From the IMG/VR virus record IMGVR_UViG_3300042331_000303: a DNA stretch of 64,000 nt. One strand, given 5' to 3'. Every line of letters begins with the position of its first letter. The stretch's first letter is position 1. A model generated the notes under the pieces. The model had not been told where the DNA came from, did not search any database, and saw nothing but the letters and a program-made list of their open reading frames with translations. Origin of the DNA: a virus. Lineage: Duplodnaviria; Heunggongvirae; Uroviricota; Caudoviricetes. Shown here piece by piece: positions 1,007 to 18,195 of the stretch. The position numbers and the translations under genes were made by a program.

Positions 1007-1100
1007 GGTGAACCTCGGTGGTGGTTGACTGTTATCCGGTCGTCAAACCGGAGGGGGCAGGAAAGTTGTCACGATTTGTCACGATGTGGGATTGTCGGCC
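1007..1100 (-). promoter_or_regulatory. conserved promoter/leader cassette, type C, copy 1
   Basis: This sequence is nearly identical (2 mismatches over about 97 nt, start codon included) to 11468-11564. In transcription sense it reads GTGACAAATCGTGACAACTTTCC ... TTGACGACCGGATAACAGTCAA, followed by a GAGG ribosome-binding site. Confidence 0.6.
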
Positions 1101-1105
1101 TCAGA

Positions 1106-1306
1106 CTACAGGTTCGGGCCGAGAGGGCAGAACTTCCATTCGGCCGGATCGCGTCGGTCCAACCAGAACCAGCCCGACTCCGTCTCTACGTACCAGTCGT
1201 CGCGGCCCATGTTGTATCTCATGCCGACCACACGCTCCCCCGGCGGAGGCGGGAGATTGTTGCGCGCCAGAATGGCCCGGTACTCCTCCTCGCGATCGGG
1301 GGTCAT
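1106..1306 (-). CDS. hypothetical protein (66 aa)
   Basis: The plausible C-terminal part of ORF 1106..1771 starts MTPDREEEY. The ATG at 1304-1306 overlaps the upstream stop as ATGA. Confidence 0.5.
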   Translation of the reverse strand: MTPDREEEYRAILARNNLPPPPGERVVGMRYNMGRDDWYVETESGWFWLDRRDPAEWKFCPLGPNL

Positions 1307-1863
1307 TCCTCCGTCTCCTGCGCGTCGTCGAACAGGTCGCAACCGTCCCGGTCGGCTTCGGCGAGGATCTCGTCGAACGTGGCGCCCGTGAACGGGAAGG
1401 TCAGCGTGTAGGGCGTGGGCTGAGCATCCGAGCCCTCGGCGTAGCCGGCCACACTGATGCCGGGCTTGGCCTTGGTTTCGGTCACGTTGATGCGGACTGT
1501 CATCCACAGTCCCCCGTAGGGCGCCGCGGTACGCTTGATGATCTGCGGCGCCTCGATGGTCTGTGGATCGTACTCCACGGTACCCCTGTTGCTGAGGTCG
1601 AGGTACTCCCGGAGCGCCGCCGGCATCTCCGAGCGGGCCTGCTTCTTCCCGCCGGCAGGCCGCCATGCGGAGACCATCCAGCCGGTGATTGCCTGAATCC
1701 ACCGGACGGTGTAGGTCCGCTCGAAACTGCGGAACGTCTGAATGGGGCCAGTCGTGAAGGACACGCCGCACTCCGTGTCCTTGTAGAGGCGCCTGGAGAT
1801 GCTCTCTGCCGTGGGGTGCGCGGCGCCAACGTACTTGGCGAGGTCTTCGAGGTTGCGGATCAT
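1303..1863 (-). CDS. hypothetical protein (186 aa)
   Basis: The plausible part of ORF 1303..2205 starts MIRNLEDLAKY. The N-terminal extension in the ORF track is Arg-rich junk typical of off-frame GC-rich sequence. Confidence 0.6.
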   Translation of the reverse strand: MIRNLEDLAKYVGAAHPTAESISRRLYKDTECGVSFTTGPIQTFRSFERTYTVRWIQAITGWMVSAWRPAGGKKQARSEMPAALREYLDLSNRGTVEYDPQTIEAPQIIKRTAAPYGGLWMTVRINVTETKAKPGISVAGYAEGSDAQPTPYTLTFPFTGATFDEILAEADRDGCDLFDDAQETEE

Positions 1864-1874
1864 GGGACCTCCGA

Positions 1875-2351
1875 TCAGACGAGGTTGAAGGGGATGGACT
1901 CGCCGATGTGGCTGGCCTTGAACACGAGCCACGCGACCCGGCGCATCTGCTCGTCGGTCAGCCCGTCGAAGTGGACGCCGCCGGAGCGGGTGGCCACGGT
2001 GCCGTCTTCGGTCTCGGCGGACCACGAGTCGTCGTACCAGCAGAACCAGTCGTGAGCCGTGCGCGGTCTGGAGGAGCTGGCTTCCGTGCAGTAGTGCTCT
2101 CGGACGATCTCCGCACAGCAGCGCTCCAGAGCGTAGATGTCGCCGTCCTCGAACCAGCCGGAGCCCTCGACGTCGATCTCCACGTCCACCCCCTGCTCTT
2201 CGCACCAGCGCTTGGCCGCCTCACCGAAGAAGTCGGCTGGCAGGGGCAACTCCTGCCCATTCACGAGGTAGCCCCGCTCGGCGTAATCGCCCTGCTCGGT
2301 GCTCTCTTCTGTCGCAAGGTCGTAGGTGATGCTGTAGGTGATGCGGTCCAT
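1875..2351 (-). CDS. hypothetical protein (158 aa)
   Basis: The ORF is clean and cassette A copy a lies immediately upstream. Confidence 0.7.
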   Translation of the reverse strand: MDRITYSITYDLATEESTEQGDYAERGYLVNGQELPLPADFFGEAAKRWCEEQGVDVEIDVEGSGWFEDGDIYALERCCAEIVREHYCTEASSSRPRTAHDWFCWYDDSWSAETEDGTVATRSGGVHFDGLTDEQMRRVAWLVFKASHIGESIPFNLV

Positions 2352-2470
2352 GGAAGCTCCGTTGTGGGGGCAGAGGGTTCGTCGGTGGCCCCAACAAGTT
2401 AGCAGGTCGGCAAACTTGTCGGGGCGGGAAAGTTGTCACGGATTGTCCCCCTTTAGGGGGAGGAGAATCG
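2352..2470 (-). promoter_or_regulatory. conserved terminator+promoter cassette, type A, copy a
   Basis: The hairpin TCCCCCTTTAGGGGGA at 2446-2461 sits just after the upstream stop codon at 2478. GAAAGTTGTCAC and AAACTTGTC repeats follow, and CCCCAACAAG with the leader is almost identical to 13181-13305. Confidence 0.6.
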
Positions 2471-2477
2471 CCTGCGC

Positions 2478-2705
2478 TCAGTCGGGGCACACGCAAGAGA
2501 GCATGATCTCGGCGCGGGAGCGGGCATCCACGTCTTTCCACGGGATCTGCTCGACCCCAAGTGTCGGGTAGACCGTACCGTCGCAACGGTAGAAGTCCAC
2601 ACGGGCGCAGTGCCACACGCCGCCATGCCGGTCGTAGAACGCGGGGCGTGGGTTTCGAGAGTTTCCTGCCGCGCAGAGGACCGAAGTCCGAAGCCAGAGG
2701 GGCAT
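2478..2705 (-). CDS. hypothetical protein (75 aa)
   Basis: ORF track; the protein contains Cys and His residues. Confidence 0.45.
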   Translation of the reverse strand: MPLWLRTSVLCAAGNSRNPRPAFYDRHGGVWHCARVDFYRCDGTVYPTLGVEQIPWKDVDARSRAEIMLSCVCPD

Positions 2706-2709
2706 GGGG

Positions 2710-3051
2710 CTACTCCGGGATGAACGCGAGAAGCTCGCGCAGGTCAGAGATTCGCTGCGCGGGGTAGTCGCGCATGAGGACCGCTTTGTATCTGTCGCCG
2801 CGCCGTGCCGCGACGCGCTCCGCGTCGGAGCGGAGCAGGACCGTCACGCCCACGAAGCCGGGCTTGACGAAGATGGGGGTCCACACGTCCCCCGTGATGT
2901 TGAGGGCGAGGCCACCAGAGCACGCCACGATCCACGAGAGATCGCTGATGTGCTTGTGGGAGTCGGTCTCCGCGGCCTCCTCCCATGCCCGGAGTTCGGT
3001 CGTGAGGAGGGTCCGGATCTCTCTGGTTGCGGCGTTGGGCGTCATGGCCAT
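2710..3051 (-). CDS. hypothetical protein (113 aa)
   Basis: The plausible part of ORF 2710..3225 starts MAMTPNAATREI at 3049-3051. Confidence 0.55.
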   Translation of the reverse strand: MAMTPNAATREIRTLLTTELRAWEEAAETDSHKHISDLSWIVACSGGLALNITGDVWTPIFVKPGFVGVTVLLRSDAERVAARRGDRYKAVLMRDYPAQRISDLRELLAFIPE

Positions 3052-3053
3052 GG

Positions 3054-3404
3054 CTACTCCATCGCCGGGAGGGTTTCCGGAAGGAACATCCCGTCCGCCC
3101 CGATGCTCGTCTCCCCGTAGTGCAGGAGCTGCCCCCGGTTGTACCAGACGCCTCCTACCTGCCGGATGTTGGCCGAGGAGAAGTCGTTCATCCGGGCCTT
3201 CGTGGTCGCGGAACGCTGCGCCCACCCGTTGAGGGTGAACGTCCCGTCGCGATGCTGATAAACGACGATGGTACGGTGGTACCGGATGCCGATGGTGTCG
3301 GCGTCAACGCGGCAAACTTCCGTGGCGCGGATGCCGGGCACGGTCCGCTCGTTGCGGGAGCCCAGAAAGTCAGTGGAAGTTGCGAAGGTGGCGAGGTTGG
3401 GCAT
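3054..3404 (-). CDS. hypothetical protein (116 aa)
   Basis: The ORF is clean and cassette copy c lies immediately upstream. Confidence 0.6.
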   Translation of the reverse strand: MPNLATFATSTDFLGSRNERTVPGIRATEVCRVDADTIGIRYHRTIVVYQHRDGTFTLNGWAQRSATTKARMNDFSSANIRQVGGVWYNRGQLLHYGETSIGADGMFLPETLPAME

Positions 3405-3533
3405 AGAGCGGTCCAGTCAAGCGGCGGGTTTGAGGGAGGGAAGCGAGGTCGCCGTTGACCCCAACAATGTGACATGCTGGGAAACTTGCCGGGGCTGATT
3501 GTTTGTCACGAAATGTCCCCCTTTAGGGGGAGA
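3405..3533 (-). promoter_or_regulatory. conserved terminator+promoter cassette, type B, copy c
   Basis: The hairpin TCCCCCTTTAGGGGGA at 3516-3531 lies 2 nt after the stop codon at 3534. The TTTGTCACGAAATGT and CCCCAACAATGTG motifs and the leader GTCAACGGCGACCTCGCTTCCCTCCCTCAAACCCGCCGCTTGAC are shared with 13844-13985. Confidence 0.6.
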
Positions 3534-4211
3534 TCAATCGCGTAGCGCGAGTCGGGCGCGTGACGCGGGATGCGCGTCGAGTGCGTTGCGCAGCGCGATT
3601 GCGTTGCCCGCTGCGTGGCCCGCTGCGTTCGCGGTATGCGTGACACTGTGTTGCTTGCCCTTGCCCGCTGCGCGTTGCACATCCGCCATGCGCGCGTGGA
3701 CGAGTTGCGAGCCTTCGGGGTCGGCGTCCGAATGCTCGGTGCGCAGGGCGCGCAGGCGCAGGCCGAGCGCCGCGACCGCCGAGACCACGAAGCTCCCGTG
3801 CGCCTTCCGCCGTTCCCCCTTGTCCATCCACGCGGGCAAACCGCGCGTGTACGCCTTGGCTCGCTTCTCGATCTCCCGAGCCAGCATCTCGTAGAGGTAG
3901 CGCACGATCTCGATCCCGCTCGCGTGGCCCCACACCTCCATGGAGGTCGCCCCGGGCGTGAAGTACGCGATGCAGTTGGCGTGCGCGGCTACCTCCGTGA
4001 GAAGTGCGCGCCGCCACATGGATTTGCTGCCGAGTTCCTGCACTCCCTTGACGACCGCGTCCTGCGCGGCCTCGGAGAGATCGGCCATGCTCACAGCGTG
4101 CTCCGCCATGAGCTTGCGCACCTGCGCCGCGGCGGCTTCGCCCTCGGGCATTCCCTGCTGGTCCCGCGCGAGGCTGGCGAGCTTGCGTAGCCGGCGGATG
4201 ATGGGCGTCAT
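3534..4211 (-). CDS. hypothetical protein (225 aa)
   Basis: The plausible part of ORF 3534..4436 starts MTPIIRRLRKLASLARDQQ at 4209-4211. Confidence 0.6.
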   Translation of the reverse strand: MTPIIRRLRKLASLARDQQGMPEGEAAAAQVRKLMAEHAVSMADLSEAAQDAVVKGVQELGSKSMWRRALLTEVAAHANCIAYFTPGATSMEVWGHASGIEIVRYLYEMLAREIEKRAKAYTRGLPAWMDKGERRKAHGSFVVSAVAALGLRLRALRTEHSDADPEGSQLVHARMADVQRAAGKGKQHSVTHTANAAGHAAGNAIALRNALDAHPASRARLALRD

Positions 4212-4360
4212 TTCCTGTGCCCCCGCACGAGGTCGGCGAGGTAGCAGAGCCCCAGGCTGATACCCCCGCAGATCGCGCCGATTTCTCCTCCTTCGAGGAA
4301 CCAGACGAAGGCTCCGATAAACAAGGTGGTACCGATGTTGTTCTTGTGATCCCATTTCAT
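4208..4360 (-). CDS. small membrane peptide (50 aa), absent from the ORF track
   Basis: Translation gives MKWDHKNNIGTTLFIGAFVWFLEGGEIGAICGGISLGLCYLADLVRGHRK, a single hydrophobic helix. The gene overlaps both neighbours as ATGA. Confidence 0.4.
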   Translation of the reverse strand: MKWDHKNNIGTTLFIGAFVWFLEGGEIGAICGGISLGLCYLADLVRGHRK

Positions 4361-4647
4361 TGGTAGAGGCTCCAGTCTCGGAAGGCTTGGGGGGGAATGA
4401 GGGGCAGCGCGAAGTCGGGCTCAGCCAACTCCGCACCGTAGCAAACGGACTCGGCGCCGTCTTCGCTCCGGACGACCCAGAGGTCCTCGTCTTCGGACTC
4501 GATGGTGTCGCCGTTGAACGCCGAGATCAACCGGACGACGGTACCCCTCCGGCCCTTCCACTCAGGCTTGGCGTAGGGGCCGACCACCCGGCACTTCTTG
4601 CCGACGTACCGCTCTTCGAGCGCCCTGACTTGCAGTTCGGTCATCAT
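4357..4647 (-). CDS. hypothetical protein (96 aa)
   Basis: ORF track; the protein is plausibly globular. Confidence 0.6.
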   Translation of the reverse strand: MMTELQVRALEERYVGKKCRVVGPYAKPEWKGRRGTVVRLISAFNGDTIESEDEDLWVVRSEDGAESVCYGAELAEPDFALPLIPPQAFRDWSLYQ

Positions 4648-4654
4648 GGGCGCC

Positions 4655-4945
4655 TCAGTAGTTGAGCGGGTAGATGGCAGAGTACCACGACGTGCAGGAC
4701 TCGCAGAAGTACCCCTGCGCTTCCAGGAACTCGCGGAACTCCTCAGTCGAGGCTACGTCCTCGTAGTCCCAGTTGCAGTAGGGGGCCATCGGGCCCCCGT
4801 CGTGGACCAGCACGAGGTCCGCGGTGTTCCCGTAGGCTTCGCCCCGCGCGCGCCAGTCCTCGGGCAGGTAGATGTGGGTGCCGGGCTGGTCGAGGTCGTG
4901 GCCCCGGTCCGTGAAGAACTTGTGAACGAGATTGTGCAGTTCCAT
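4655..4945 (-). CDS. hypothetical protein (96 aa)
   Basis: ORF track. Confidence 0.6.
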   Translation of the reverse strand: MELHNLVHKFFTDRGHDLDQPGTHIYLPEDWRARGEAYGNTADLVLVHDGGPMAPYCNWDYEDVASTEEFREFLEAQGYFCESCTSWYSAIYPLNY

Positions 4946-5056
4946 GGTCAGCTCCGGGCCTTTCGGCTGCGACGGTCGGGTTTGGTGTTGCGGAAAGAGC
5001 GGTTGTCGAAGCCGTGCGCGTCCCGGATCAGCTCGTCCGTTCGGGCAGGAACGAGA

Positions 5057-5407
5057 TCACGCTGGAGTGCCATCTCGTTGCCCCTCCTCGCTGGCGTCGA
5101 TGCTGTCGACCATGTCGGCGAGCGCGGCATCCAGCATCCCCGCTGTGTCTCCAGAGCGATCGAGGGCCGAGGAGACGGCCCAGAACGACCCGGTGAACTG
5201 GAGCGCGAGCTGCCACGCCGCGGAGAAGTCCCGCCCGGCGAGGTAGGTGAGATCGGCAACCTCGTCGCCTCCATCGTCGTGGAGCGTACCTTCCCAACGG
5301 TTGAAGGCTCCTTCACAGAGCCGCCACTCGGGGTCGGGGTGCATGGAAGGGTACACTCGCTTGGGGGTCGGGAGCTTGTTGGTGTCGGCGCTGATGTCGG
5401 TATCCAT
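5057..5407 (-). CDS. hypothetical acidic protein (116 aa)
   Basis: The plausible part of ORF 5057..5500 starts MDTDISADTNKL at 5405-5407. Confidence 0.55.
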   Translation of the reverse strand: MDTDISADTNKLPTPKRVYPSMHPDPEWRLCEGAFNRWEGTLHDDGGDEVADLTYLAGRDFSAAWQLALQFTGSFWAVSSALDRSGDTAGMLDAALADMVDSIDASEEGQRDGTPA

Positions 5408-5408
5408 G

Positions 5409-5888
5409 TCAAGCCTCCGCGGTGGTGTAGGTCGGTCGAAGTTCGTCGCGTTCTTCTTCGGCAGTTTCGATGTCACAGTCGACCATGCCGATGTCGACAC
5501 GGACTTGCAGGGGTACTCCGGGAATGGTGGCGGGTCGGATGCCGATCGAGATCACGTCCTCCGCGAAGTCCCAGTTGTCGTTGGTCTCGGCGTCGGGATC
5601 GACCCCTTCTGGGGTGACGGGCGGCGAGACGAGCCGGGTCAGGGCTTCCCGGTGGAGCAGGAGGCTGTCCACCAGTAGCGCCACGAGCTTCTCCATCCGT
5701 GGCGATTCAGGCGTGGCCCGGTGCCGGATGGCGATGGCTTCCAGGAACGCCGCAGCGGGGATGGTTTGGAGGTCCGCAACAGTCGGCTCGATGCCGCTGT
5801 TCGGGTAGGAGAGAGCGTCCACGACGAGCGTCGGGATGCGGCACTCCTTGCAGCAGTCTTCGATCTCGTAGTTCGTGGCGATGGGCAT
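5409..5888 (-). CDS. hypothetical protein (159 aa)
   Basis: ORF track; the protein has a CCKEC motif. Confidence 0.6.
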   Translation of the reverse strand: MPIATNYEIEDCCKECRIPTLVVDALSYPNSGIEPTVADLQTIPAAAFLEAIAIRHRATPESPRMEKLVALLVDSLLLHREALTRLVSPPVTPEGVDPDAETNDNWDFAEDVISIGIRPATIPGVPLQVRVDIGMVDCDIETAEEERDELRPTYTTAEA

Positions 5889-5915
5889 GGGGCCTCCAGA
5901 AGTTGTGTGTGTTGA

Positions 5916-6362
5916 CTACTCGACTCGATCCCACCGCAAGTCGTAGACGTGAGCGTAGTATCCCCCCGACTTGTCTTCGAGGTAGACCCGACCAGATGCT
6001 CCCGCCTTGTGCGGCGCCTCGCCACTCCGGAGGATCGCCGTCTTCCCGTGGTGGTCGGTCACGCGGTCCCCGATGTGGACCTGCCTGCCGTTGGACTCTC
6101 GGACGAGCCGATACATCCCGTCGTAGCCCTTCATCGTCATGCCCTCGCGAGCCTTGACCGTCATCCGAACAGAGAACCCCGCAGGGCCCTCCACGTCGAC
6201 TTCGCCGTAGATGAAGGCAAGCCACGAAGCGTGTTCCAGCGCCTTGATGGCGCCGACGTTCCCGGCGAGCAGCTCGCTCTCTTCCGTAGCTTCAACGGTC
6301 CGGGGCTTTGCCGGCTCTCGGGGGGTGATGGTGTAGGTTGCGGTGAAGGTCGGGGTGGTCAT
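5916..6362 (-). CDS. hypothetical protein (148 aa)
   Basis: The plausible part of ORF 5916..6680 starts MTTPTFTATYTI at 6360-6362. Confidence 0.55.
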   Translation of the reverse strand: MTTPTFTATYTITPREPAKPRTVEATEESELLAGNVGAIKALEHASWLAFIYGEVDVEGPAGFSVRMTVKAREGMTMKGYDGMYRLVRESNGRQVHIGDRVTDHHGKTAILRSGEAPHKAGASGRVYLEDKSGGYYAHVYDLRWDRVE

Positions 6363-6391
6363 GGTCAGGGCTCCTTGTAGGGGGGTGGCGG

Positions 6392-6640
6392 TTACGCCGG
6401 AATGGGGATGCCGGCCGCGACCAACGCTTCTTCGATGGTCAGTCCCCCGTAGAGACGCCGGGAGAGGTTGACGGGCCGTTTGCCCCTGGCAGCCACGCGA
6501 GCGGCTGAGCTGAGCGCGAACCGACTTTCGCTCTCCTCCCGTCGCTGAGCCTGCCCATGCAACGGTTCGGAAGCAGTCCCGAGAGGGGCGTGGGGGATGG
6601 CCGCTTGCAGCACTTTGGCGGAGTAGAGGTGGAAAGCCAT
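6392..6640 (-). CDS. hypothetical protein (82 aa)
   Basis: The part of ORF 6392..6706 that lies downstream of the cassette starts MAFHLYSAK at 6638-6640. Confidence 0.45.
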   Translation of the reverse strand: MAFHLYSAKVLQAAIPHAPLGTASEPLHGQAQRREESESRFALSSAARVAARGKRPVNLSRRLYGGLTIEEALVAAGIPIPA

Positions 6641-6740
6641 AGGGAACCTCAGTGGCCCCAACAATATGCCACGGTGGCAAACTTGGAGGGGCTGGAAAGT
6701 TGTCACAGGTTGTCCCCCGAAGGGGGAAGAGAATCGCCTA
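6641..6740 (-). promoter_or_regulatory. conserved terminator+promoter cassette, copy e
   Basis: The hairpin TCCCCCGAAGGGGGA is followed by GGAAAGTTGTCACAGGTTGT, GGCAAACTTGGAGGGGC and CCCCAACAATATG, with a GAGG ribosome-binding site. Confidence 0.55.
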
Positions 6741-6809
6741 CGTCGTCCAGCGCGCCGCCGAGTAGAGCGCCTCGCACGGCCTCTACACGCCCGCGAACCT
6801 CCGCCTCTG

Positions 6810-7833: not shown

Positions 7834-7955
7834 GGGAACCTCAGTTGTGGGAGGGCTGTCCCCGTTCGTGGGGCAAGGCGCCCATCCTTGCAGGGCGCTA
7901 CGCCGGCCTCGCGGGAGGTCGGTGCTGGGGGTTGTCGGGGCCCCCACCCGTGCCC

Positions 7956-8513
7956 TCAGACGGGGGCTTCCACCTCCGCGCCGGTCTTGGCGTCCACCGC
8001 CTTGGCCTTCGGCGCCGCCTTGGCCTTCGGCGCCGCCTTGGCCTTCGGGGCCTTCGGCTCGGCCTTGGCCTTCGGGGCCTTCGGCTCGGCCTTGGCCTTC
8101 GCGGCCTTGGCCGGCTTCGCCGCCTTCGCGGCTTCCCGCTCGGCCGCCTTGGCCGCCTTGGCCTCCGCCTTCACGGCCCGCTCGGCCTCCGCCTTGGCCT
8201 TGCGCTCCTCCCCGGCGGTGCAGGTCGGGAGGATGGTCACCTTGCCAGCCTTGCGCTCGGCGCGGACCGTGGCGCCGGGCACGTCGAGGCTTTCGGCGAC
8301 GAAGATGTTGGGCTCGGCCTCAGCGAACAGGCCCAGCCGGTGGCCCTGCGCCGTGGCCGCCTGCCGCGCCGCGGCTCGGATGTCGCGGGACGAGAGGAAG
8401 GTCCGGGTCGAGGTCACGGTGCCGTCGCCACCGACGGACACGGTGTGGCTGACGCTGCCGTCTTCGTTGGCGATGGCGATGGTGAGGGAGGCGAGGAGAA
8501 GGGCGGTGGTCAT
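7956..8513 (-). CDS. secreted protein with a C-terminal Ala/Lys/Pro-rich repeat tail (185 aa)
   Basis: The N-terminus MTTALLLASLTIAIA looks like a signal peptide. The C-terminus carries (KAKAEPKAP)n / AKAAK repeats, encoded by tandem GCC/CTT-rich DNA repeats at 7985-8110. Confidence 0.6.
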   Translation of the reverse strand: MTTALLLASLTIAIANEDGSVSHTVSVGGDGTVTSTRTFLSSRDIRAAARQAATAQGHRLGLFAEAEPNIFVAESLDVPGATVRAERKAGKVTILPTCTAGEERKAKAEAERAVKAEAKAAKAAEREAAKAAKPAKAAKAKAEPKAPKAKAEPKAPKAKAAPKAKAAPKAKAVDAKTGAEVEAPV

Positions 8514-8645
8514 GTTGTGCTCCAGTCGTTGGGGGTTTCGGTGTCGCCGTTTGGCCCAACCAATGTGACATGGTGGCAAACCGGTAGGGGCAGTTTGTTT
8601 GTCACGGATTGTATCCCGTAGGGATATTATTATCGCGTAGCGCGA
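8514..8645 (-). promoter_or_regulatory. conserved terminator+promoter cassette, copy f
   Basis: The hairpin ATCCCGTAGGGAT is followed by ATTATTATCGCG, TTTGTTTGTCACGGATTGT and CCAACCAATGTGACATGG. The sequence is related to 13895-13985. Confidence 0.55.
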
Positions 8646-8713
8646 GCGCGCGTAATGCGGGATGCGCTGCGCGGCGCGTTGCGGGCTGTCCGAGGTTGGC
8701 ACAGCCTTTGCTC

Positions 8714-8858
8714 TTCGTGATGCGCAGCGGGCGTGGCGCGGGGCGCTACGTGATGCGCGGCGCGGTGCGCTACGTGATGCGCGGCGCGCGGTGCGCTGCG
8801 CTGCGTGATGCGCTACCCGACGTGCGGTGCAAGCTCAAGCGTGATGCGCAGCACGACT
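8714..8858 (-). repeat. array of about 5 CGTGATGCGC(A/G) repeats in a 3' intergenic region
   Basis: CGTGATGCGC occurs at about 8717, 8752, 8777, 8801 and 8845, lying between the stop codon at 8813 and the cassette. Confidence 0.4.
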
Positions 8859-9094
8859 TGCACGCTGAACTCGTGATCTACGCTGTCCTCCGGCGCCTCG
8901 TGAGAGAACCCAAGGTCGAACGGGACGTTCAGGTCCGGGTACGAGAGGTACCGCGCGCCCAGATCCCGCGTCACTCGACGCCCGCACGTCGGGCAGTCCG
9001 CGTGGACCTTCACGCTCGGGAGGTAGAGGCGCTTCACGTCGATGACGTAGGGCGTGTCACGGTCCAGCTCGATCTCGGGGGGCCGCGCGGGCAT
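8813..9094 (-). CDS. hypothetical protein (93 aa)
   Basis: The plausible part of ORF 8813..9178 starts MPARPPEIELDRD at 9092-9094 and contains a CPTCGRR motif. Confidence 0.5.
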   Translation of the reverse strand: MPARPPEIELDRDTPYVIDVKRLYLPSVKVHADCPTCGRRVTRDLGARYLSYPDLNVPFDLGFSHEAPEDSVDHEFSVQVVLRITLELAPHVG

Positions 9095-9432
9095 CAGGCT
9101 TCCCCTACGGGGGTGGTCGTGTACTGGCCCGTCGCGTTCACCAGATCGCAGTCCTTCGCGGAGATCGTGATGTACCACGACGTCACCATGGGGTCCTCGA
9201 CCACCATCGTGGTCGCGCCCGTTCCCTTGTGCTGGAGCATGGCGACGTACAGCGGCCCGTCTACGCTGTCAGGCCGATAGAATCGAGCACGGAGAGCTTC
9301 TGGGAAGGAGGGTACGTGAACGATCGCACGGGCTTCGAGTCTCCCAGCAGGCCCGATGATGTGCCACCACGGCTGCTCGCAAGCCCAAGCATGGAAAGCG
9401 GATTCTGCGTCGGAGGGGGGCGGAGAGGTCAA
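9094..9432 (-). CDS. hypothetical protein (112 aa)
   Basis: ORF track. Confidence 0.55.
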   Translation of the reverse strand: MTSPPPSDAESAFHAWACEQPWWHIIGPAGRLEARAIVHVPSFPEALRARFYRPDSVDGPLYVAMLQHKGTGATTMVVEDPMVTSWYITISAKDCDLVNATGQYTTTPVGEA

Positions 9433-9739
9433 GAGATGCTCCAGGTCAAGAGGATTCCGTCAGGGGCGTGGCCCGGCTGGTCTTCCCAACCGAGCGGGAG
9501 AATCGTGGCGTCCCTTTGGGGAACTCCCGAGCGTCCCGCTCGCAGTCGAAGTCAGGCGGATCGGCATGGTAGATTTCGACAAGCATGATCCCTCCGAGGT
9601 TGAGGTGGGTCGGGGCCGCTTCGCTGGGGAGTACCCCTCCACGGCTTCCGACTGCGCTACCACCATCGCGGTCCTACCCGGACACGGGAGCCTTTGTGCG
9701 AGAGCGACCTCGCTTCCATCCTCGGGAGCCAACCGAGTA

Positions 9740-9758
9740 GCTGAGGAGCGACCTCAGC
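9740..9758 (-). terminator. stem-loop (7-bp stem GCTGAGG/CCTCAGC, 5-nt loop) 9 nt after the stop of the 567-aa gene
   Basis: The sequence GCTGAGGAGCGACCTCAGC forms a perfect inverted repeat. The downstream tract is not strongly U-rich, so this is a moderate call. Confidence 0.45.
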
Positions 9759-9766
9759 GCGCACTG

Positions 9767-11470
9767 TTAGGCCGCGGCGCGGCGAGCGAACTTGACGAGG
9801 TCCGGCAGGAAGACGCCACCGACATCCTCCTCGATCTGCTCGCCCTTGTGGACGGGGACGAGCACCTTCTCTCCGCCCTGATGGGCGAACCGGGTGACAG
9901 CGTTGACGAGGTCCGCCGCGGTCTGGCCGGCTTCCAACTGCCAGCATTCGAGGATGGCCTGCACCGTGGCATCGCGGGCCAGCCCCTCGCTGATGCGGCC
10001 CGCCTTGCAGAGCGCCCGGATGGCGTCGGGGACGGTGGAGTACCGCTCGCCGTAGATGTCCACGGTGTGGATGGGGGTGTTGCGGAGCAGGCCCCAATCC
10101 TCGGCGAAGGCGTTGATGAACGCATCCACCTTCGGAAGCGCCTCGGCGATGGCCGCGGAGACCGCCTCTTCCGTGATGTCGCCGTGGTGGACGAACCGGA
10201 ACAGGTTGCCAACGCCCTTCGCGATGATGATGAGGTTCACGCACTGGTTGCGGAAGATCACGATGTCGCCGCGGATGCTCCCGCCCCCCTTGTCGTCGGC
10301 CCGGAACATGATGCCCCCCTTGAAGGTGTCACCCGCCGAGAGGTCCACGATCTTGTCGGCGTGGAAGAGCGCCTCGGCCCGGAGCGTCGCCTTCGCCGGG
10401 TTGTAGATCGCGGAGCCGTGCGGCTGGTCGGCCACGCTCCACTTCTGCTGCCGGAGGCCCTTGGAAATGAGGTTGGCGACCCGGTCCGTGTCGAACACCG
10501 TGTAGGTGTCGCCGACCGCGGCGTAGATCGCCCGTCCCACCTCGTCGGAGCCCTCCACCTTCTTGCCGAGCCGGGTGCGGAGCGTGATCGTGTCCATCTC
10601 GCCGTTCTTGTCGGCCCAGACGTCGACCGCCTCGTTGAAGTGCCTCGCCCGGATCGCGGAGGGCAGGGAGAGGAAGTGGTCGGAGGCGCCCCCGAACACG
10701 TTGGCGAAGGCGGTGGAGCCGAGCAGGCTTCGGAGGCCCACTTCTTCGATGCCCACCAGCTTGTGGGGAGTCGAGGCACGGAAGACACGACCGTCCTCCG
10801 CCATCCGAAGCTCAGCGAGGGTCACGCCCCGAACGTCAATGCGCTGCTCCGCTTCGATGGCGGCCTCGATGCCTTCGAGGTTGTCCGCCGTCACGCCGGC
10901 CTTCTCCCACTGGCGCCGGGACCGGGCGAAGTTCTGGTGGCCCATGTCCACGACCGCGGTACCGGCGGCCACGACGGTGGGCCCCATGTTGATGCCGAAC
11001 TTGTCCCACAGGTATCGGGTCTGCCGCTCCTGCCGCTCCTTGACGTGGACGAGCGCATCGGGGTTCTGGTTCTCGCGGAGGGCATCGAGCGCCGGGTTGC
11101 TCTCCTCGACCGGCGCCTCGACCTTGGCCTCTCCGGCAGTGGCGGCATTGTTCGCCGCGTCCCACCCGGCGAGCCAGTAGCTCACCTTCTCCTCCGTGTA
11201 GTCGGAGGGGGCTTGGTCGCGGGGAAGCGCGGCCTGCCAGTCTCCGTAGCCGTGCCAGTACCACTCGTTGTCCACAGGGTCGACCGCACCCACCTCGGCA
11301 TCGAGCCGGTTGCCGCCCGAATCCGTCGGGTAGATGTCGACCTCGCTCGGGTTGCCGCCCAGCGCGGCGCACCGCCGCACCGCTTCGAGGTAGGTGTTGA
11401 ACGGGCCGTGCTCGAACAGGCCGAGCTTGAAGGCGTGGAACTCGGGGACGTTGGAAGCGATGGTGGACAT
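9767..11470 (-). CDS. large hypothetical protein (567 aa), possibly abundant or structural
   Basis: The ORF is clean. It uses the same 97-nt leader as the acidic gene at 506..1006 and is followed by a terminator hairpin. No recognisable catalytic motifs were found. Confidence 0.8.
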   Translation of the reverse strand: MSTIASNVPEFHAFKLGLFEHGPFNTYLEAVRRCAALGGNPSEVDIYPTDSGGNRLDAEVGAVDPVDNEWYWHGYGDWQAALPRDQAPSDYTEEKVSYWLAGWDAANNAATAGEAKVEAPVEESNPALDALRENQNPDALVHVKERQERQTRYLWDKFGINMGPTVVAAGTAVVDMGHQNFARSRRQWEKAGVTADNLEGIEAAIEAEQRIDVRGVTLAELRMAEDGRVFRASTPHKLVGIEEVGLRSLLGSTAFANVFGGASDHFLSLPSAIRARHFNEAVDVWADKNGEMDTITLRTRLGKKVEGSDEVGRAIYAAVGDTYTVFDTDRVANLISKGLRQQKWSVADQPHGSAIYNPAKATLRAEALFHADKIVDLSAGDTFKGGIMFRADDKGGGSIRGDIVIFRNQCVNLIIIAKGVGNLFRFVHHGDITEEAVSAAIAEALPKVDAFINAFAEDWGLLRNTPIHTVDIYGERYSTVPDAIRALCKAGRISEGLARDATVQAILECWQLEAGQTAADLVNAVTRFAHQGGEKVLVPVHKGEQIEEDVGGVFLPDLVKFARRAAA

Positions 11471-11564
11471 GGTGAACCTCAGTGGTGGTTGACTGTTATC
11501 CGGGCGTCAAACCGGAGGGGGCAGGAAAGTTGTCACGATTTGTCACGATGTGGGATTGTCGGCC
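11471..11564 (-). promoter_or_regulatory. conserved promoter/leader cassette, type C, copy 2
   Basis: This sequence is nearly identical to 1007-1100. Confidence 0.6.
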
Positions 11565-11565
11565 C

Positions 11566-12471
11566 CTACTCGACCGCCGCGGCGTCAGTCGGGGCAGTCT
11601 GGAGCGTGGTGAGGAAGCGCTCGACCTCGGCGCGGTGGAAGCGGTGGCAGCCCACAACGAGCGTGCCTTCCGCCTCCACCCGGTAGACCGGGAACCCGCC
11701 GAAGGTGGGGATGACCAGCCCGTCGAAGGTGTAGTCCGTGCCCCCCTGAATGAGCGGGAGGAGCGTCGGGAGCCAGCGCTGCACGTCGGCGAGCGGGACC
11801 GTCACCCGCTGGCTCGTCTCCACCTGGACCCCGTCGGGACTCATGCGGAGCAGGTCGCCGCACTCCGCCCGAAACTCATAGAAGCTGTAGGGAGAGGCAA
11901 CGCCCCCCGCTTTCCACGCTTCCATGTCAGCCAGAGTCGCGGCCAGCTTAGCTTCCCGCGCTGCGGCTCGGCGCGCTTCTGCCTGCTCTTCCTGTACTTT
12001 CCGCAGCGCGGCAAGCTCCGCCAGCGCGGCGGGGTCGACCTCTGGAAAGGGGTCGAAACCGAAGAGCGCGCAGAACTCGTTTGCGGCGGCCACCGTAGCT
12101 GCGGCCACACGGAGCGCCTTGTCCTTGGACGGCTTCCGCGTCGCCGCAGCGTACTGCACGGCCGCATCGGTGACAGTGACTGCCCACTGCTCCCGGATGC
12201 TGGCGGGAGTGCTCGCGGTAGTGAGCGCCCCAGGGGCGGAAGCCACCGCACCGGGCGCCGCACGCCATGCGATGCTCTGGTGCTTGCTTGTTGTGACCGA
12301 GTAGCTCAGCCGCGTCCGAACGATTCCCTCGGGGAAACGGATCGCGATGACCGTGTTGTAGGAGAACAGGTGGGGCCCGTTGAACGAGAGAGCCGCGCAC
12401 CTGCCACTCTCCTGCCGCCCGTGGGCCCAGTAGTGTGCAACTTCGTCGATGTGGCGGAGGACGTTGCGCAT
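11566..12471 (-). CDS. hypothetical protein (301 aa)
   Basis: The ORF is clean. Its middle region is Ala-rich and helical, of the kind that could form a coiled coil. Confidence 0.7.
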   Translation of the reverse strand: MRNVLRHIDEVAHYWAHGRQESGRCAALSFNGPHLFSYNTVIAIRFPEGIVRTRLSYSVTTSKHQSIAWRAAPGAVASAPGALTTASTPASIREQWAVTVTDAAVQYAAATRKPSKDKALRVAAATVAAANEFCALFGFDPFPEVDPAALAELAALRKVQEEQAEARRAAAREAKLAATLADMEAWKAGGVASPYSFYEFRAECGDLLRMSPDGVQVETSQRVTVPLADVQRWLPTLLPLIQGGTDYTFDGLVIPTFGGFPVYRVEAEGTLVVGCHRFHRAEVERFLTTLQTAPTDAAAVE

Positions 12472-12493
12472 GAGATTGCTCCTTGGGTGAATG

Positions 12494-12646
12494 TCAGTCA
12501 GGGCAGACGACGTGAACGTCTTCCTGCTTGATGGCGTGGGAGTAGCCGGACCAGCTCGTGAAGAATACGATGCGGATGCGGAGGTTGGACCAGTGCTCGA
12601 ACCGGGTGACCGGCCCGAGATACTCGCCAGTGCGGGAGAAGACCAT
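12494..12646 (-). CDS. small protein (50 aa), absent from the ORF track
   Basis: Translation gives MVFSRTGEYLGPVTRFEHWSNLRIRIVFFTSWSGYSHAIKQEDVHVVCPD, with an AAGGAG ribosome-binding site upstream. Confidence 0.4.
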   Translation of the reverse strand: MVFSRTGEYLGPVTRFEHWSNLRIRIVFFTSWSGYSHAIKQEDVHVVCPD

Positions 12647-12649
12647 GAG

Positions 12650-13180
12650 CTACTCCCGCTCGGTGCGGCGGAGGACCCAGCGAGCTTCTACGCCGGGCTC
12701 GGTAGGTACGAAGGCCCACTCCCAGCCCCACACGCCGGGCTCGTCGGGGAACCGGATGCACTCCGGGACGAGGATTTCCCACGCTTCGTCCTCCGTCAGC
12801 GGTGCGTATCGAAGCTCCCGATCTTCCTCGTCCTGCCCCTCTTCGAGGTCGTAGTACGACTCCGCGGGGCAATCCAGAGATTCGATCTTGGCCGCGCCGA
12901 TGTCGGCCACCACATCCGCCGGGTAGATCGCCGGAGCATCCACGATGCCCTTCCAAGCGGCCGGCGGGAACGTCTCTTCCGGCCGAGCCGGGACGAGGGG
13001 GATGGAGAGGTACACACTCTCGTACCCCTCGTGGTATCCGTTGGCATCGAAGCACTGCCGGTCGAACAGGACGAACACAGCGGTCTCCGTGACAGTGATG
13101 TCCTCCCCTCCGGCGTCCCGAAGTTGGGAGACAAGCACGGCGACGTTGACGTAGGTCCGAGAGAAGGTGGCGGTGCGCAT
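12650..13180 (-). CDS. hypothetical protein (176 aa)
   Basis: The ORF is clean and cassette A copy b lies immediately upstream. Confidence 0.7.
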   Translation of the reverse strand: MRTATFSRTYVNVAVLVSQLRDAGGEDITVTETAVFVLFDRQCFDANGYHEGYESVYLSIPLVPARPEETFPPAAWKGIVDAPAIYPADVVADIGAAKIESLDCPAESYYDLEEGQDEEDRELRYAPLTEDEAWEILVPECIRFPDEPGVWGWEWAFVPTEPGVEARWVLRRTERE

Positions 13181-13305
13181 TGGTTGCTCCGTTGTGGGGG
13201 CAGAGGGTTCGTCGGTGGCCCCAACAAGTTAGCATGGCAGCAAACTTGTCAGGGCAGGAAAGTTGTCACGAAATGTCCCCCGAAGGGGGAAGAGAATCGC
13301 GCGCC
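13181..13305 (-). promoter_or_regulatory. conserved terminator+promoter cassette, type A, copy b
   Basis: Apart from a few substitutions this is a near copy of 2352-2470. The hairpin is TCCCCCGAAGGGGGA. Confidence 0.6.
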
Positions 13306-13307
13306 AC

Positions 13308-13763
13308 CTACAGGGGCAGTGCGCTGTAGACGGGTCGCTCCGGGGGTGCGGGCATGCTGAGCACCTTCGCGGCGTAGGCGATCATGTCGAGCCGGTGGCG
13401 CCCGTAGAGCCAGCAATCCATCCACTCCCCGAAGGGGAACGTGCCGGTCGCCCCGTCCCAGCCGGCCCATCGGACGCGGGCCTTGACCCCTTCGGGGCCC
13501 CACTTCCCGAAGTGAGGCAGGGTCCGCACCACACGCCCAGTCACCTCGATCTGGACGTAGGAGAACCCTCGGTCCCCCGTCTGCCCCACCGCCATGTTCA
13601 CGCCTTCCGCGGGCTTGTCCCACGCAAGGCACTCCGCAGTCGGCTTGTAGAGCTTCGCCCACCGGAAGTCGTCGGGACGGCGCTCCCAGAGCAGGAGGAT
13701 GTTGGCGCAGGGGAACGCCACGTCTTCAGGATCGGCGATGTCGGCGTCGGGCTTGCGGGTCAT
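13308..13763 (-). CDS. hypothetical protein (151 aa)
   Basis: The plausible part of ORF 13308..13859 starts MTRKPDADIADPED at 13761-13763. Confidence 0.55.
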   Translation of the reverse strand: MTRKPDADIADPEDVAFPCANILLLWERRPDDFRWAKLYKPTAECLAWDKPAEGVNMAVGQTGDRGFSYVQIEVTGRVVRTLPHFGKWGPEGVKARVRWAGWDGATGTFPFGEWMDCWLYGRHRLDMIAYAAKVLSMPAPPERPVYSALPL

Positions 13764-13843
13764 GGGAACACCACGTAGATCGAAAGGGGAATGGCGATGG
13801 CAAGAATGGCGAGCACCGTTTCGGCGAGATCGGCATGACGCAT
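13760..13843 (-). CDS. possible hydrophobic micro-peptide (27 aa)
   Basis: Translation gives MRHADLAETVLAILAIAIPLSIYVVFP. Its stop overlaps the downstream start as ATGA and it lies directly downstream of the cassette leader. Confidence 0.25.
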   Translation of the reverse strand: MRHADLAETVLAILAIAIPLSIYVVFP

Positions 13844-13985
13844 CGTAAGAGCCTGTCAAGCGGCGGGTTTGAGGGAGGGAAGCGAGGTCGCCGTTGACCC
13901 CAACAATGTGCCTCGTTGCCAGACTTGCCGGGGCCGGAAAGATGTCACGTATTGTATCCCGTAGGGATATTATTATCGCGTGGCG
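13844..13985 (-). promoter_or_regulatory. conserved terminator+promoter cassette, type B, copy d
   Basis: The leader CAAGCGGCGGGTTTGAGGGAGGGAAGCGAGGTCGCCGTTGACCCCAACAATGTG is shared with 3405-3460. The hairpin is ATCCCGTAGGGAT followed by ATTATTATCGCG. Confidence 0.6.
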
Positions 13986-17913: not shown

Positions 17914-17915
17914 CA

Positions 17916-18189: not shown

Positions 18190-18195
18190 GTGGGC

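What the first reader, a model, noticed from the sequence alone, without database searches (positions are those of the whole stretch)
1007..13985. Family of at least 8 conserved terminator+promoter+leader cassettes partitioning the minus-strand gene block
Eight intergenic segments share a conserved architecture and long identical stretches. Six are 100-140 nt type A/B cassettes: 2352-2470, 3405-3533, 6641-6740, 8514-8645, 13181-13305 and 13844-13985. In transcription sense each has a GC hairpin right after the upstream stop, then ACA(A/T)T..CGTGACAACTTTC, then GCCC(C/T)GACAAGTTT(G/C)CC, then ..TTGTTGGGG, then one of two alternative about 40-nt leaders and a ribosome-binding site. The other two are 94-nt type C cassettes (1007-1100 and 11471-11564), which share the GTGACAA...GTGACAACTTTCC repeat and a TTGAC...GTCAA palindrome. 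The direct repeat TGACAA(C/G)TTT(C/G)C is spaced about 2 helical turns apart. That spacing suggests a dimeric or tandem-binding regulator (repressor or activator) or a phage-specific sigma, rather than simple sigma70 -35/-10 geometry. This regulon organises about 35 small genes. It is reminiscent of, but longer than, mycobacteriophage start-associated sequences and the conserved inverted repeats of phiC31.
Basis: seen in the sequence. Interest (0 to 1): 0.75.

Follow-up and report, generated by a model that had tools for sequence, protein, structure and literature searches.

The report
Repeated stem-loop/promoter-like cassettes in phage
An uncultivated high-GC phage separates groups of small unknown genes on one arm with at least eleven copies of a ~100-130-nt hairpin + promoter-like + leader cassette, which resembles the "promoter/stem-loop" cassettes of T4-type phages and the early-gene modules of Streptomyces phage phiC31 but does not follow the canonical promoter pattern the same phage uses elsewhere.

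Summary
All eight segments are intergenic, on the minus strand and homologous: a core pattern gives 6 hits against 0.02 expected. The family is larger than reported. Three more copies lie just beyond the window on the same contig. A ~86%-identical relative carries copies at the orthologous sites, and a 57%-aa relative keeps only three short boxes.

Each cassette has a short hairpin without a U-tract, a -35-like box GTGACAA preceded 10 nt upstream by GACAA, a box AGTTTG, and 9 nt later an extended -10-like GnnAnnTT followed by GTTGGGG. A leader with a Shine-Dalgarno site follows.

No canonical -35/N17/-10 geometry and no canonical terminator is present. Elsewhere the same phage has about 15 canonical TTGACA-N17-TAnnnn promoters, many of them leaderless, and none inside this block.

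The copies are mosaic, which indicates gene conversion. Some carry fragments of a neighbouring gene, and some indel breakpoints between relatives abut cassette edges. The cassettes are not MITEs.

My best reading (about 0.5) is a PeSL/phiC31-like stem-loop + promoter + leader module of a second promoter class. The leading rival is RNA-level punctuation of one long operon. Promoter and terminator activity remain untested.

The parts
13844..13985 (-). Cassette A13844 (ATAATAAT-hairpin type). HP1 13955-13969; Box1 13941-13956; inverted repeat 13897-13934; Box2 13920-13926; extended -10-like AGGCACATT 13905-13913; GTTGGGG 13898-13904; 55-nt leader to the ATG at 13843.
13181..13305 (-). Cassette A13181. 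HP1 13276-13290 (CCCCC-TTC-GGGGG); Box1 13262-13277; inverted repeat 13218-13255; Box2 13241-13247; TGCTAACTT 13226-13234; predicted start G at 13219; 39-nt leader with GGAG.
11471..11564 (-). Cassette C11471 (type C). Tandem GTGACAA at 11546 and 11536; TCCGGT/ACCGGA inverted repeat around TTGACG; GGATAACAG 11493-11501; 16-nt leader with GAGG; ATG of the 567-aa gene at 11470.
   Evidence: (D7)
8514..8645 (-). Cassette A8514 (ATAATAAT-hairpin type). HP1 8612-8626; Box1 8598-8613; inverted repeat 8554-8591; Box2 8577-8583; TGTCACATT 8562-8570; 42-nt leader.
8646..8813 (-). GC-rich non-coding upstream extension of A8514. It contains GCGCATCACGTAGCGC repeats. The ~45 nt next to HP1 are homologous to the 3' coding end of the DUF7168 gene.
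6641..6740 (-). Cassette A6641. HP1 6713-6727; Box1 6699-6714; inverted repeat 6655-6692; Box2 6678-6684; TGGCATATT 6663-6671; 16-nt leader with GAGG.
3405..3533 (-). Cassette A3405. HP1 3516-3531; Box1 3502-3517; inverted repeat 3458-3495; Box2 3481-3487; TGTCACATT 3466-3474; 55-nt leader with a 5'-terminal hairpin. The stop codon of the upstream DUF7168 gene (3534-3536) abuts it.
2352..2470 (-). Cassette A2352. HP1 2446-2461; Box1 2432-2447; 13-bp inverted repeat 2388-2425 (-24 kcal/mol); Box2 2411-2417; TGCTAACTT 2396-2404; 38-nt leader with GGAG.
1007..1100 (-). Cassette C1007 (type C), 98% identical to C11471. Tandem GTGACAA at 1082 and 1072; GGATAACAG 1029-1037; ATG of the 166-aa gene at 1006.
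   Evidence: (D7)
17022..17050 (-). Canonical promoter-like site TTGACA-N17-TAGAGA at the head of the minus-strand block. It is the only canonical site on this strand.
13760..13843 (-). 27-aa hydrophobic ORF that starts at the 3' end of cassette A13844. It overlaps the 151-aa gene by ATGA and is conserved in the relative.
   Evidence: sequence read directly

Best explanation
These are composite regulatory cassettes of the 'stem-loop + promoter + leader' kind, analogous to T4-type PeSLs and to the hairpin/early-promoter modules of phiC31. They divide the ORFan arm of a large, probably actinobacterial, phage into about 11 expression units.

Proposed mechanism (inferred, not shown):
1. Read-through RNA from the upstream unit folds HP1 and the longer GCCCC...GGGGC hairpin. 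These attenuate or stabilise its 3' end.
2. RNA polymerase re-initiates at the G run about 7 nt after an extended -10-like element (G at -14, A at -11, T at -7).
3. There is no -35 hexamer at the normal distance. Recognition is instead helped by the conserved upstream boxes: Box2 AGTTTG at fixed spacing, and the -35-like GTGACAA/GACAA pair at about -50 and -60. This probably works through a phage- or host-encoded factor, which would make it a second promoter class, distinct from the canonical TTGACA-N17-TAnnnn promoters used on the other arm.
4. The transcript starts with a conserved, C-rich leader. In some variants the leader has a 5'-terminal hairpin, and it carries the Shine-Dalgarno site.

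Because the copies are long and similar, they also recombine with each other (gene conversion, duplication together with flanks). This contributes to gene gain and loss in this arm.
For: Placement:
- The cassettes fill 8 of the 10 intergenic gaps of at least 95 nt between 1000 and 14000, always in gene orientation, and end in SD + ATG.

Conserved positions:
- In all 20 copies from three phages, the base two positions before the hexamer is G and hexamer position 2 is A.
- Hexamer positions 5-6 are TT in all 17 A/B copies, while positions 1, 3 and 4 vary (TAACTT, CACATT, CATATT, TAGATT).
- Box2-to-hexamer spacing is identical in all three phages. Box1-to-Box2 spacing varies by 1 nt.
- The 57%-aa relative keeps Box1, Box2 and Box3 but not HP1. 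It has TTGCGG 17 nt upstream of CATATT. This pattern points to sequence-specific protein recognition rather than RNA structure alone.

Matches to the phage's own canonical promoters:
- Box1 scores 9-10 bits on a PWM built from the phage's canonical -35 regions (background frequency about 6e-4).
- The type C hexamer region scores 9.3 bits on the canonical -10 PWM.
- Canonical promoters also have G two positions before the hexamer.
- The canonical family gives 16 hits against 3.5 expected, and 8 of these end exactly 7 nt before a start codon. It is absent from the ORFan block in this phage and its relatives. The cassettes are therefore the only repeated candidate start signals in that block.

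Evolution of the copies:
- Copies are mosaic, and copies in the relative are often closer to a paralogue than to the orthologue.
- Breakpoints of two indel loci coincide with cassette edges.
- The upstream extension is homologous to a gene's 3' end.

Precedents:
- PeSLs have stem-loops that overlap the -10/-35 boxes and end in SD + ATG (PMC2839356, PMC4122927).
- phiC31 has 8 repeated non-canonical motifs 43-65 nt before early genes, often after a hairpin.
Against: - There are no transcript data.
- No -35 lies 16-18 nt from the hexamer in phages 1 and 2, and the sigma70 scan finds nothing in the cassettes.
- The type C hexamer ends in AG, not T.
- Other promoter-like pairings exist, so the start point is ambiguous: GTGACA-N16-AAGTTT; GCGATW-N17/18-(T/G)ACAWT spanning HP1; and an antisense TTGTCA-N18-GATATT in the ATAATAAT type.
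- HP1 is weak and has no U-tract.
- The arms of the long inverted repeat show no copy-specific covariation (native -19.24 against chimeric -19.30 kcal/mol).
- Only 3 of about 11 indel breakpoints are at cassette edges.
- No sigma, activator or RNA polymerase gene was found in the 64 kb examined.
Confidence: 0.5

Rival explanations
1. RNA-level punctuation only. The whole minus arm is one long operon driven from the canonical promoter at 17050. The cassettes are processing, stability or translation modules: hairpins that stop exonucleases, a single-stranded Box1 as an endonuclease or RNA-binding-protein site, and conserved leaders for translation. This would resemble the RNase III sites of the T7 early operon or the SAS/ESAS elements of Cluster K mycobacteriophages.
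For: - Only one canonical promoter lies on this strand, at the head of the block.
- Each cassette RNA folds into two hairpins separated by a conserved unpaired 20-mer.
- HP1 shows two compensatory pairs between its two variants.
- There is no canonical promoter geometry in the cassettes.
- A distant relative (L149) has unrelated triple-hairpin cassettes directly in front of start codons.
Against: - The hairpins are not conserved in the 57%-aa relative, whereas the primary-sequence boxes are.
- HP1's covariation is a single haplotype switch.
- The long hairpin shows no copy-specific covariation.
- The invariant G/A/T positions match a -10 element rather than a structure.
- There is no Rfam match.
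- The stems are 13 bp or shorter, below typical RNase III substrates.
Confidence: 0.2
2. Regulator-binding or RNA-polymerase-handling sites rather than autonomous promoters. One version is an array of operators for a phage repressor or activator that binds the tandem GACAA/GTGACAA repeats (stoperator-like). Another is sigma-dependent pause or antitermination sites: a -35-like TTGNCN lies only 6 nt from a -10-like hexamer, as in lambdoid PR' pause complexes (this parallel is from my own knowledge).
For: - Tandem GACAA boxes at 10-nt phasing occur in every copy and in all three phages.
- In type C both a -35-like TTGACG (8-12 bits) and a -10-like hexamer (9.3 bits) are present, but 6 nt apart.
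- The sites are asymmetric and orientation-specific, like stoperators (PMC9283540 abstract).
Against: - No repressor, integrase or Q/N-like gene was recognised in the window.
- Eleven antitermination or pause sites in one operon has no precedent.
- The boxes are much longer than a 13-bp operator.
- This reading does not explain the conserved leaders.
Confidence: 0.15
3. Promoters for a phage-encoded RNA polymerase, either single-subunit or non-canonical multisubunit. The contiguous conserved block nAnnTTGTTGGGG, with an initiating G run, would be the core.
For: - There is a long, nearly invariant block around the presumed start, with a GGGG start.
- It is a distinct class from the canonical host-type promoters in the same genome.
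Against: - No RNA polymerase domain appears in any protein of the 64-kb window.
- The region from -17 to -13 is variable, unlike T7-type promoters.
- The conserved positions fit a sigma-type extended -10.
- About half of the 131-kb contig could not be inspected.
Confidence: 0.07
4. Selfish repeats (MITE- or REP-like mobile elements) with no role in expression.
For: - The copies are highly similar and carry flanking gene fragments.
- Their sequences are mosaic.
Against: - All copies are intergenic, in one orientation, and end at an SD + ATG.
- There are no terminal inverted repeats or target duplications.
- Positions are orthologous in the ~86%-identical relative.
- No copies were found elsewhere in the window, in IMG/VR or in the metagenome collection.
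Confidence: 0.03

Closest known systems
PeSLs (promoter-early stem-loops) of T4-type phages (Arbiol et al. 2010, PMC2839356; Comeau et al. 2014, PMC4122927)
   Same: - Repeated composite intergenic cassettes: stop codon, stem-loop (often G-run/C-run), promoter, SD and start codon.
- The stem-loop may sit upstream of, or overlap, the -10/-35 boxes.
- Concentrated in a plastic region of small ORFans.
- Copies recombine, and some indels between close relatives abut them.
   Different: - The host phage is not T4-like and has 65% GC.
- There is no sigma70 -35/N17/-10 consensus.
- There are two hairpins, additional conserved boxes and long conserved leaders.
- Indel association is modest (3 of about 11 breakpoints).
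- Promoter and terminator activity and mini-circles are untested.
phiC31 early-region modules (hairpin / CIR operator / conserved early promoter motif). Read here directly from AJ006589. That these motifs are mapped 'novel' early promoters (Ingham et al. 1993) is from my memory.
   Same: - A high-GC actinophage with a highly conserved, non-sigma70-like motif repeated 8 times, 43-65 nt before early-gene starts, frequently just after a hairpin.
- The best copy here (A2352) shares TTGCCGAC-N4-T(T/A)AC.
   Different: - A PWM of the phiC31 motif does not pick out the cassettes (scores -26 to +3.9, against 32-39 for phiC31's own sites), so this is not the same sequence family.
- There is no CIR-like 18-bp palindrome here.
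- No repressor or integrase was identified.
Start-associated sequences (SAS/ESAS) of Cluster K mycobacteriophages (PMC3203893)
   Same: - Asymmetric repeats in one orientation, in unusually long intergenic gaps of the non-structural arm, next to start codons.
- Half of them carry an upstream imperfect inverted repeat.
- Function is unknown.
   Different: - SAS is a 13-bp motif (GGGATAGGAGCCC) overlapping the RBS, and it is absent here.
- The cassettes are 95-140 nt, and their conserved core lies 22-61 nt upstream of the ATG.
Stoperators of Cluster A mycobacteriophages (PMC9283540, PMC6550527)
   Same: Many copies of an asymmetric site, orientation-linked to transcription, located near stops and intergenic regions.
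   Different: - Stoperators are 13-14-bp repressor sites scattered genome-wide.
- Here the conserved unit is about 90 nt.
- No repressor is known.
RNase III processing sites of the T7 early operon (from my own knowledge)
   Same: Conserved hairpin elements between genes of an early operon that cut one long transcript into units.
   Different: - The stems here are shorter (13 bp or less).
- The hairpins are not conserved in the more distant relative.
- The primary-sequence boxes are what is conserved.

Membership tests
PeSL (T4-type promoter-early stem-loop) | Stem-loop adjacent to or overlapping the promoter boxes | tested here: met
   HP1 lies upstream. The GCCCC...GGGGC inverted repeat encloses Box2 and the -10-like hexamer.
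PeSL (T4-type promoter-early stem-loop) | sigma70-type -35 / N17 / -10 promoter | tested here: not met
   The scan finds none in the cassettes. Only an extended -10-like element is present, and the -35-like box is 32 nt upstream.
PeSL (T4-type promoter-early stem-loop) | [quoted passage not shown] | tested here: met
PeSL (T4-type promoter-early stem-loop) | Concentrated in hyperplastic ORFan regions | tested here: met
   All copies lie in the minus-strand ORFan block. None lies in the replication block.
PeSL (T4-type promoter-early stem-loop) | Indels and replacements between close relatives bounded by cassettes | tested here: inconclusive
   2 of 7 indel loci (3 breakpoints) are at cassette edges.
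PeSL (T4-type promoter-early stem-loop) | Demonstrated promoter/terminator activity and mini-circle formation | not testable with these tools
   Needs experiments.
phiC31 early promoter motif | Match to CCGGGTTGCCGAC-N4-TTAC | tested here: not met
   PWM scores of the cassettes are -26 to +3.9, against 32-39 for phiC31's own sites.
phiC31 early promoter motif | Repeated 40-65 nt upstream of early-gene starts, after hairpins | tested here: met
   The layout is analogous.
Intrinsic (Rho-independent) terminator | GC-rich stem followed by a U-tract | tested here: not met
   No U-tract. The scan finds none at HP1 or the long hairpin.
Canonical sigma70/SigA promoter | TTGACA-like hexamer 16-18 nt upstream of a TAnnnT-like hexamer | tested here: not met
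   The 57%-aa relative has TTGCGG-N17-CATATT.
Extended -10 promoter | G at -14 (TGn), A at -11, T at -7 | tested here: met
   G and A are present in 20/20 copies, and T at position 6 in 17/20. Function is untested.
Cluster K SAS/ESAS | 13-bp GGGATAGGAGCCC at the start codon | tested here: not met
   3 hits with 2 mismatches against 2.6 expected, and none in the cassettes.
MITE / mobile repeat | Terminal inverted repeats, target duplications, variable presence at orthologous sites | tested here: not met
   Sites are orthologous in the relative. All copies have one orientation and are intergenic.
Known RNA families (Rfam 15) | Covariance-model match | tested here: not met
   No relevant hit at E<=1 in 1-22000.

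The most novel reading that the evidence does not exclude
The cassettes define a second, phage-specific promoter grammar in a phage that otherwise uses canonical, often leaderless, SigA-type promoters. In this grammar a -35-like box is displaced to about -50. A second -35-like box lies only 6 nt from an extended -10-like hexamer inside an inverted repeat. A phage-encoded factor, or a sigma-appropriation or sigma-dependent pause/antitermination mechanism, reads these sites. The result would be a temporal switch between the two genome arms.
Probability: 0.22. Interest if true: 0.7.

Novelty: new variant of a known kind. Interest (0 to 1): 0.42.

Why it matters
- If the cassettes are promoters, this is a clear case of PeSL-like 'regulatory cassette' architecture outside the T4-type phages, in a widespread and uncultivated lineage of large high-GC phages. 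The primase-like marker of this lineage has at least 280 90%-identity clusters.
- The phage would then show two promoter grammars in one genome, one per arm. That gives a sequence-level handle on the temporal programme of a phage with no cultured host.
- The cassettes are ready-made parts (insulator, promoter, leader, RBS) and probable recombination hot-spots for gain and loss of ORFan genes.
- If they are not promoters, they are an unusually elaborate RNA punctuation system.
- Either outcome can be tested with 5'-end mapping.

Tried and rejected
- Close relatives in GenBank phages: megablast found none. The polA protein matches at 28% or less.
- A 14-mer scan of IMG/VR gave only chance single hits. 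The specific core pattern gave one chance hit.
- The metagenome pattern scan hit only an unrelated conserved coding sequence. The source contig is evidently not in that collection.
- Protein searches with the 567-aa and DUF7168 proteins found only two relatives.
- Three more distant relatives, found through the primase-like gene, lack this cassette.
- sigma54 (-24/-12), SigB/F, SigH/R/E, Bacteroidetes (-33/-7) and Caulobacter-type consensus motifs were compared by eye with the aligned copies. All were rejected on spacing or on non-conserved key bases.
- Covariation in the long hairpin: the arm-swap test was negative.
- The RNAalifold consensus recovers only HP1 and the invariant outer stem.
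- Intraspecific variants from other samples are 99.9-100% identical and uninformative.
- The AlphaFold model of the 225-aa first gene had pLDDT 44 and was unusable, so no fold search was run.
- Pfam and PHROGs searches of about 45 window proteins found no sigma, RNA polymerase or HTH regulator.
- There are no tRNAs.
- Literature on phiC31 early promoters was not retrievable in the held library.

Full report
CONTEXT

The window is 65% GC. Small genes lie on the minus strand from about 17000 down to 1. A plus-strand replication and nucleotide-metabolism block runs from about 22000 onward. That block includes a UDG-PolA fusion, UvrD, SNF2 and RecD-like helicases, NAPRTase, methylases and a PD-(D/E)XK nuclease.

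An exact-protein look-up places the window on a 131-kb JGI metagenome contig (Ga0453735_0000030). Near-identical copies occur in several samples. Nothing similar exists in GenBank phages at the DNA level, and PolA is at most 28% identical to any phage record. This is therefore an uncultivated large phage.

OBSERVATION

The eight segments are real, homologous, intergenic and all on the minus strand.
- The core pattern GTGACA-N8-GCCC-N24-TTGTTGGGG finds the six A/B copies against 0.02 expected.
- The two C copies are 98% identical.
- An HMM of the core finds three more A/B copies on the same contig just past the window start (L127). At least 11 copies therefore sit in about 24 kb.
- Using JGI's gene calls, the cassettes occupy 8 of the 10 intergenic gaps of at least 95 nt between 1000 and 14000.

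ANATOMY

Positions are given in register, with the G of GTGACA as position 0.

1. A conserved GCGAT comes first, followed by a 5-6-bp hairpin, HP1.
   - HP1 has two sequence variants: TCCCCC-loop-GGGGGA and TATCCC-TAC-GGGATA.
   - The variants differ by two compensatory pairs.
   - HP1 folds at -6 to -11 kcal/mol and has no U-tract.
2. Box1 is GACAWnnnGTGACAA, two GACAA units 10 nt apart. Type C has GTGACAAATCGTGACAAC.
3. GCCCC comes next, then Box2 (A/C/G)(A/G)GT(T/C)TG at positions 22-28.
4. At positions 35-43 lies an extended -10-like element.
   - The middle base of the preceding trinucleotide is G in 20/20 copies from three phages.
   - Hexamer position 2 is A in 20/20 copies.
   - Positions 5-6 are TT in all A/B copies, while positions 1, 3 and 4 vary (TAACTT, CACATT, CATATT, TAGATT).
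   - Type C has TAACAG.
5. G(T/G)TGGGG follows.
6. A leader comes last. There are at least five variants, placing the ATG 22, 44-50 or 61 nt after the hexamer. All variants are C-rich and carry GGAG/GAGG. The 55-nt variant begins with a hairpin.

GCCCC..CAAG and CTTG..GGGGC form an inverted repeat around Box2 and the hexamer. Its MFE ranges from -12 to -25 kcal/mol. Swapping arms between copies does not weaken the fold (native -19.24 against chimeric -19.30 kcal/mol). The repeat is therefore a property of the consensus, not evidence of structure-preserving evolution.

The standard scans find no sigma70-type promoter and no intrinsic terminator in any cassette. Rfam has no match.

RELATIVES

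Phage 2 (L132/L133, about 86% nt identity, from a freshwater metagenome) has cassettes at the orthologous sites. This excludes recent MITE-like mobility.

The sequences in phage 2 are nevertheless mosaic.
- Several phage-2 copies are closer to a paralogous phage-1 copy than to their orthologue.
- Orthologous cassette identity ranges from 76 to 99%, while the flanks are mostly 78-92% identical.
- This pattern indicates exchange between copies.

Of seven indel loci between the two phages, two have breakpoints exactly at cassette edges.
- Two extra genes lie between the type C cassette and the 567-aa gene, and one more lies before that cassette.
- A 247-nt insertion abuts A6641.

The ~45 nt upstream of the ATAATAAT-type hairpins are homologous to the coding 3' end of the DUF7168 gene, which lies upstream of A3405. 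Copies have therefore spread by duplication together with their flanks.

Phage 3 (L131, 57% aa identity in the 567-aa protein) retains only GACATTTCGTGACAA, GAGTTTG and CATATTGGTGG.
- The Box2-to-hexamer spacing is the same as in phages 1 and 2.
- TTGCGG lies 17 nt upstream of the hexamer.
- A C-like copy has tandem GTGACAA.
- HP1 is absent.
Primary-sequence boxes are thus conserved more deeply than the hairpins.

More distant members of this lineage were reached through the primase-like gene, which has at least 280 clusters. They lack this cassette. One of them (L149) has its own, unrelated repeated intergenic hairpin cassettes.

A KEY CONTRAST FOUND IN PASSING

The same phage carries a canonical promoter family, TTGAC[AG]-N16-18-TAnnnn, with 16 hits against 3.5 in shuffles.
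- Fourteen hits lie on the plus strand, in front of replication-block genes.
- One lies at the head of the minus block (17050-17022).
- In eight, the hexamer ends exactly 7 nt before the start codon. This implies leaderless mRNAs, an actinobacterial hallmark (compare Cluster O mycobacteriophages, PMC4351075).
- None lies inside the ORFan block of this phage or its relatives.

On PWMs built from this family, Box1 scores 9-10 bits as a -35 element. The type C hexamer region scores 9.3 bits as a -10 element. The spacing, however, is 32 nt from Box1 and 6 nt from the TTGNCN inside Box2, not 17.

The cassettes are therefore built from host-promoter-like pieces in a non-canonical arrangement. The phage clearly can write a canonical promoter when it needs one.

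INTERPRETATION

The best-supported reading (about 0.5) is a stem-loop + promoter + leader cassette that works like the PeSLs of T4-type phages.
- PeSLs are composite stop/stem-loop/promoter/SD-ATG units, and their stem-loop may overlap the -10 or -35 box.
- They are concentrated among ORFans and mediate recombination (PMC2839356, PMC4122927).
- The phiC31 early region is a second analogue. Reading AJ006589 directly shows 8 intergenic copies of CCGGGTTGCCGAC-N4-TTAC, 43-65 nt before early-gene starts and often right after a hairpin.

Initiation would use the extended -10-like element with a start in the G run. The upstream boxes would replace a -35, possibly through a phage factor. All of these steps are inferred.

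The cassette is not a sequence member of the phiC31 motif family. It fails the sigma70-consensus criterion of PeSLs, so I file it as a new variant of that kind rather than a member.

RIVALS

- RNA-level punctuation of one long operon from the 17050 promoter: 0.2.
- Regulator, operator or sigma-dependent pause sites: 0.15.
- Promoters for a phage RNA polymerase: 0.07. No such gene lies in the 64 kb inspected.
- Selfish repeats: 0.03.

Several alternative promoter-like pairings exist inside the cassette. The transcription start is therefore unresolved without 5'-end data.

VERDICT

This is a real and well-defined repeat family, larger than reported. The 'terminator' and 'promoter' labels remain unproven, the suggested regulators are unsupported, and the MITE alternative is refuted. 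Interest is moderate.

Noticed in passing
window 17022-17050 (-), and + strand at 18161, 21991, 22786, 25721, 29921, 30135, 32311, 37047, 39158, 45764, 47822, 55324, 56120, 60175: A canonical promoter family, TTGAC[AG]-N16-18-TAnnnn, gives 16 hits against 3.5 in shuffles. In 8 of them the hexamer ends exactly 7 nt before the start codon, implying leaderless mRNAs and suggesting an actinobacterial host. Five have a second TGACA 7 nt downstream of the first.
   Followed up: partly
window 17742-18196: A 68-nt perfect direct repeat occurs twice (18016-18083, 18094-18161). The low-GC motif CCCCATCACTTATTTCTTA occurs three times direct and once inverted. The second 68-nt repeat abuts the -35 of the 18161 promoter. 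This looks like an origin, iteron or regulatory region.
   Followed up: no
window 17079-17741 (+): A 220-aa protein whose sequence reads like the N-terminal core-binding part and the first catalytic Arg box (LRWSAV) of a tyrosine recombinase. It is truncated and has no Pfam hit. It lies next to the repeat region above.
   Followed up: no
window 8646-8813 and 13986-14067 (-); L127 20092-20144: GC-rich non-coding stretches with GCGCATCACGTAGCGC repeats lie upstream of the ATAATAAT-type cassettes. The part next to the hairpin is homologous to the 3' coding end of the DUF7168 gene (3534-4211). On the + strand of A8514 there is a TTGTCA-N18-GATATT site (8599-8628), followed around 8690-8725 by a hairpin with a T-rich tail. 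This could be an antisense small RNA.
   Followed up: partly
window 13760-13843 (-): An uncalled 27-aa hydrophobic ORF (MRHADLAETVLAILAIAIPLSIYVVFP) starts at the end of cassette A13844. It is coupled by ATGA to the 151-aa gene and is conserved in the ~86% relative.
   Followed up: no
window 54335-54422 and 54623-54710 (+): An 88-nt direct repeat, 99% identical, lies inside the 1339-aa UDG-PolA ORF, in its C-terminal part, which carries weak MerR/HTH_17-like hits.
   Followed up: no
window 7986-8216 (-): An 18/27-nt tandem repeat (GCCTTCGGCGCCGCCTTG...) lies inside the 185-aa gene directly downstream of cassette A8514. It encodes an Ala/Lys/Pro-rich low-complexity protein.
   Followed up: no
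L149 16321-16413, 17313-17402, 20216-20306: A distant relative (53% GC) has its own repeated intergenic cassette of three short hairpins directly upstream of start codons. It also has terminator-like repeats at 14596 and 15036.
   Followed up: partly
L148 18315-19922: Another relative carries a 535-aa ORF with a weak Cas12f1-like TNB (TnpB-type) domain hit inside its small-gene block.
   Followed up: no
window 7834-7955 and 9241-9766 (-): These are the two long intergenic gaps of the ORFan block without a cassette. The first ends in CACAACTGAGGTTCCCATG, which resembles the short cassette leader. In the second, the relative has a ~1-kb insertion at about 9505.
   Followed up: partly
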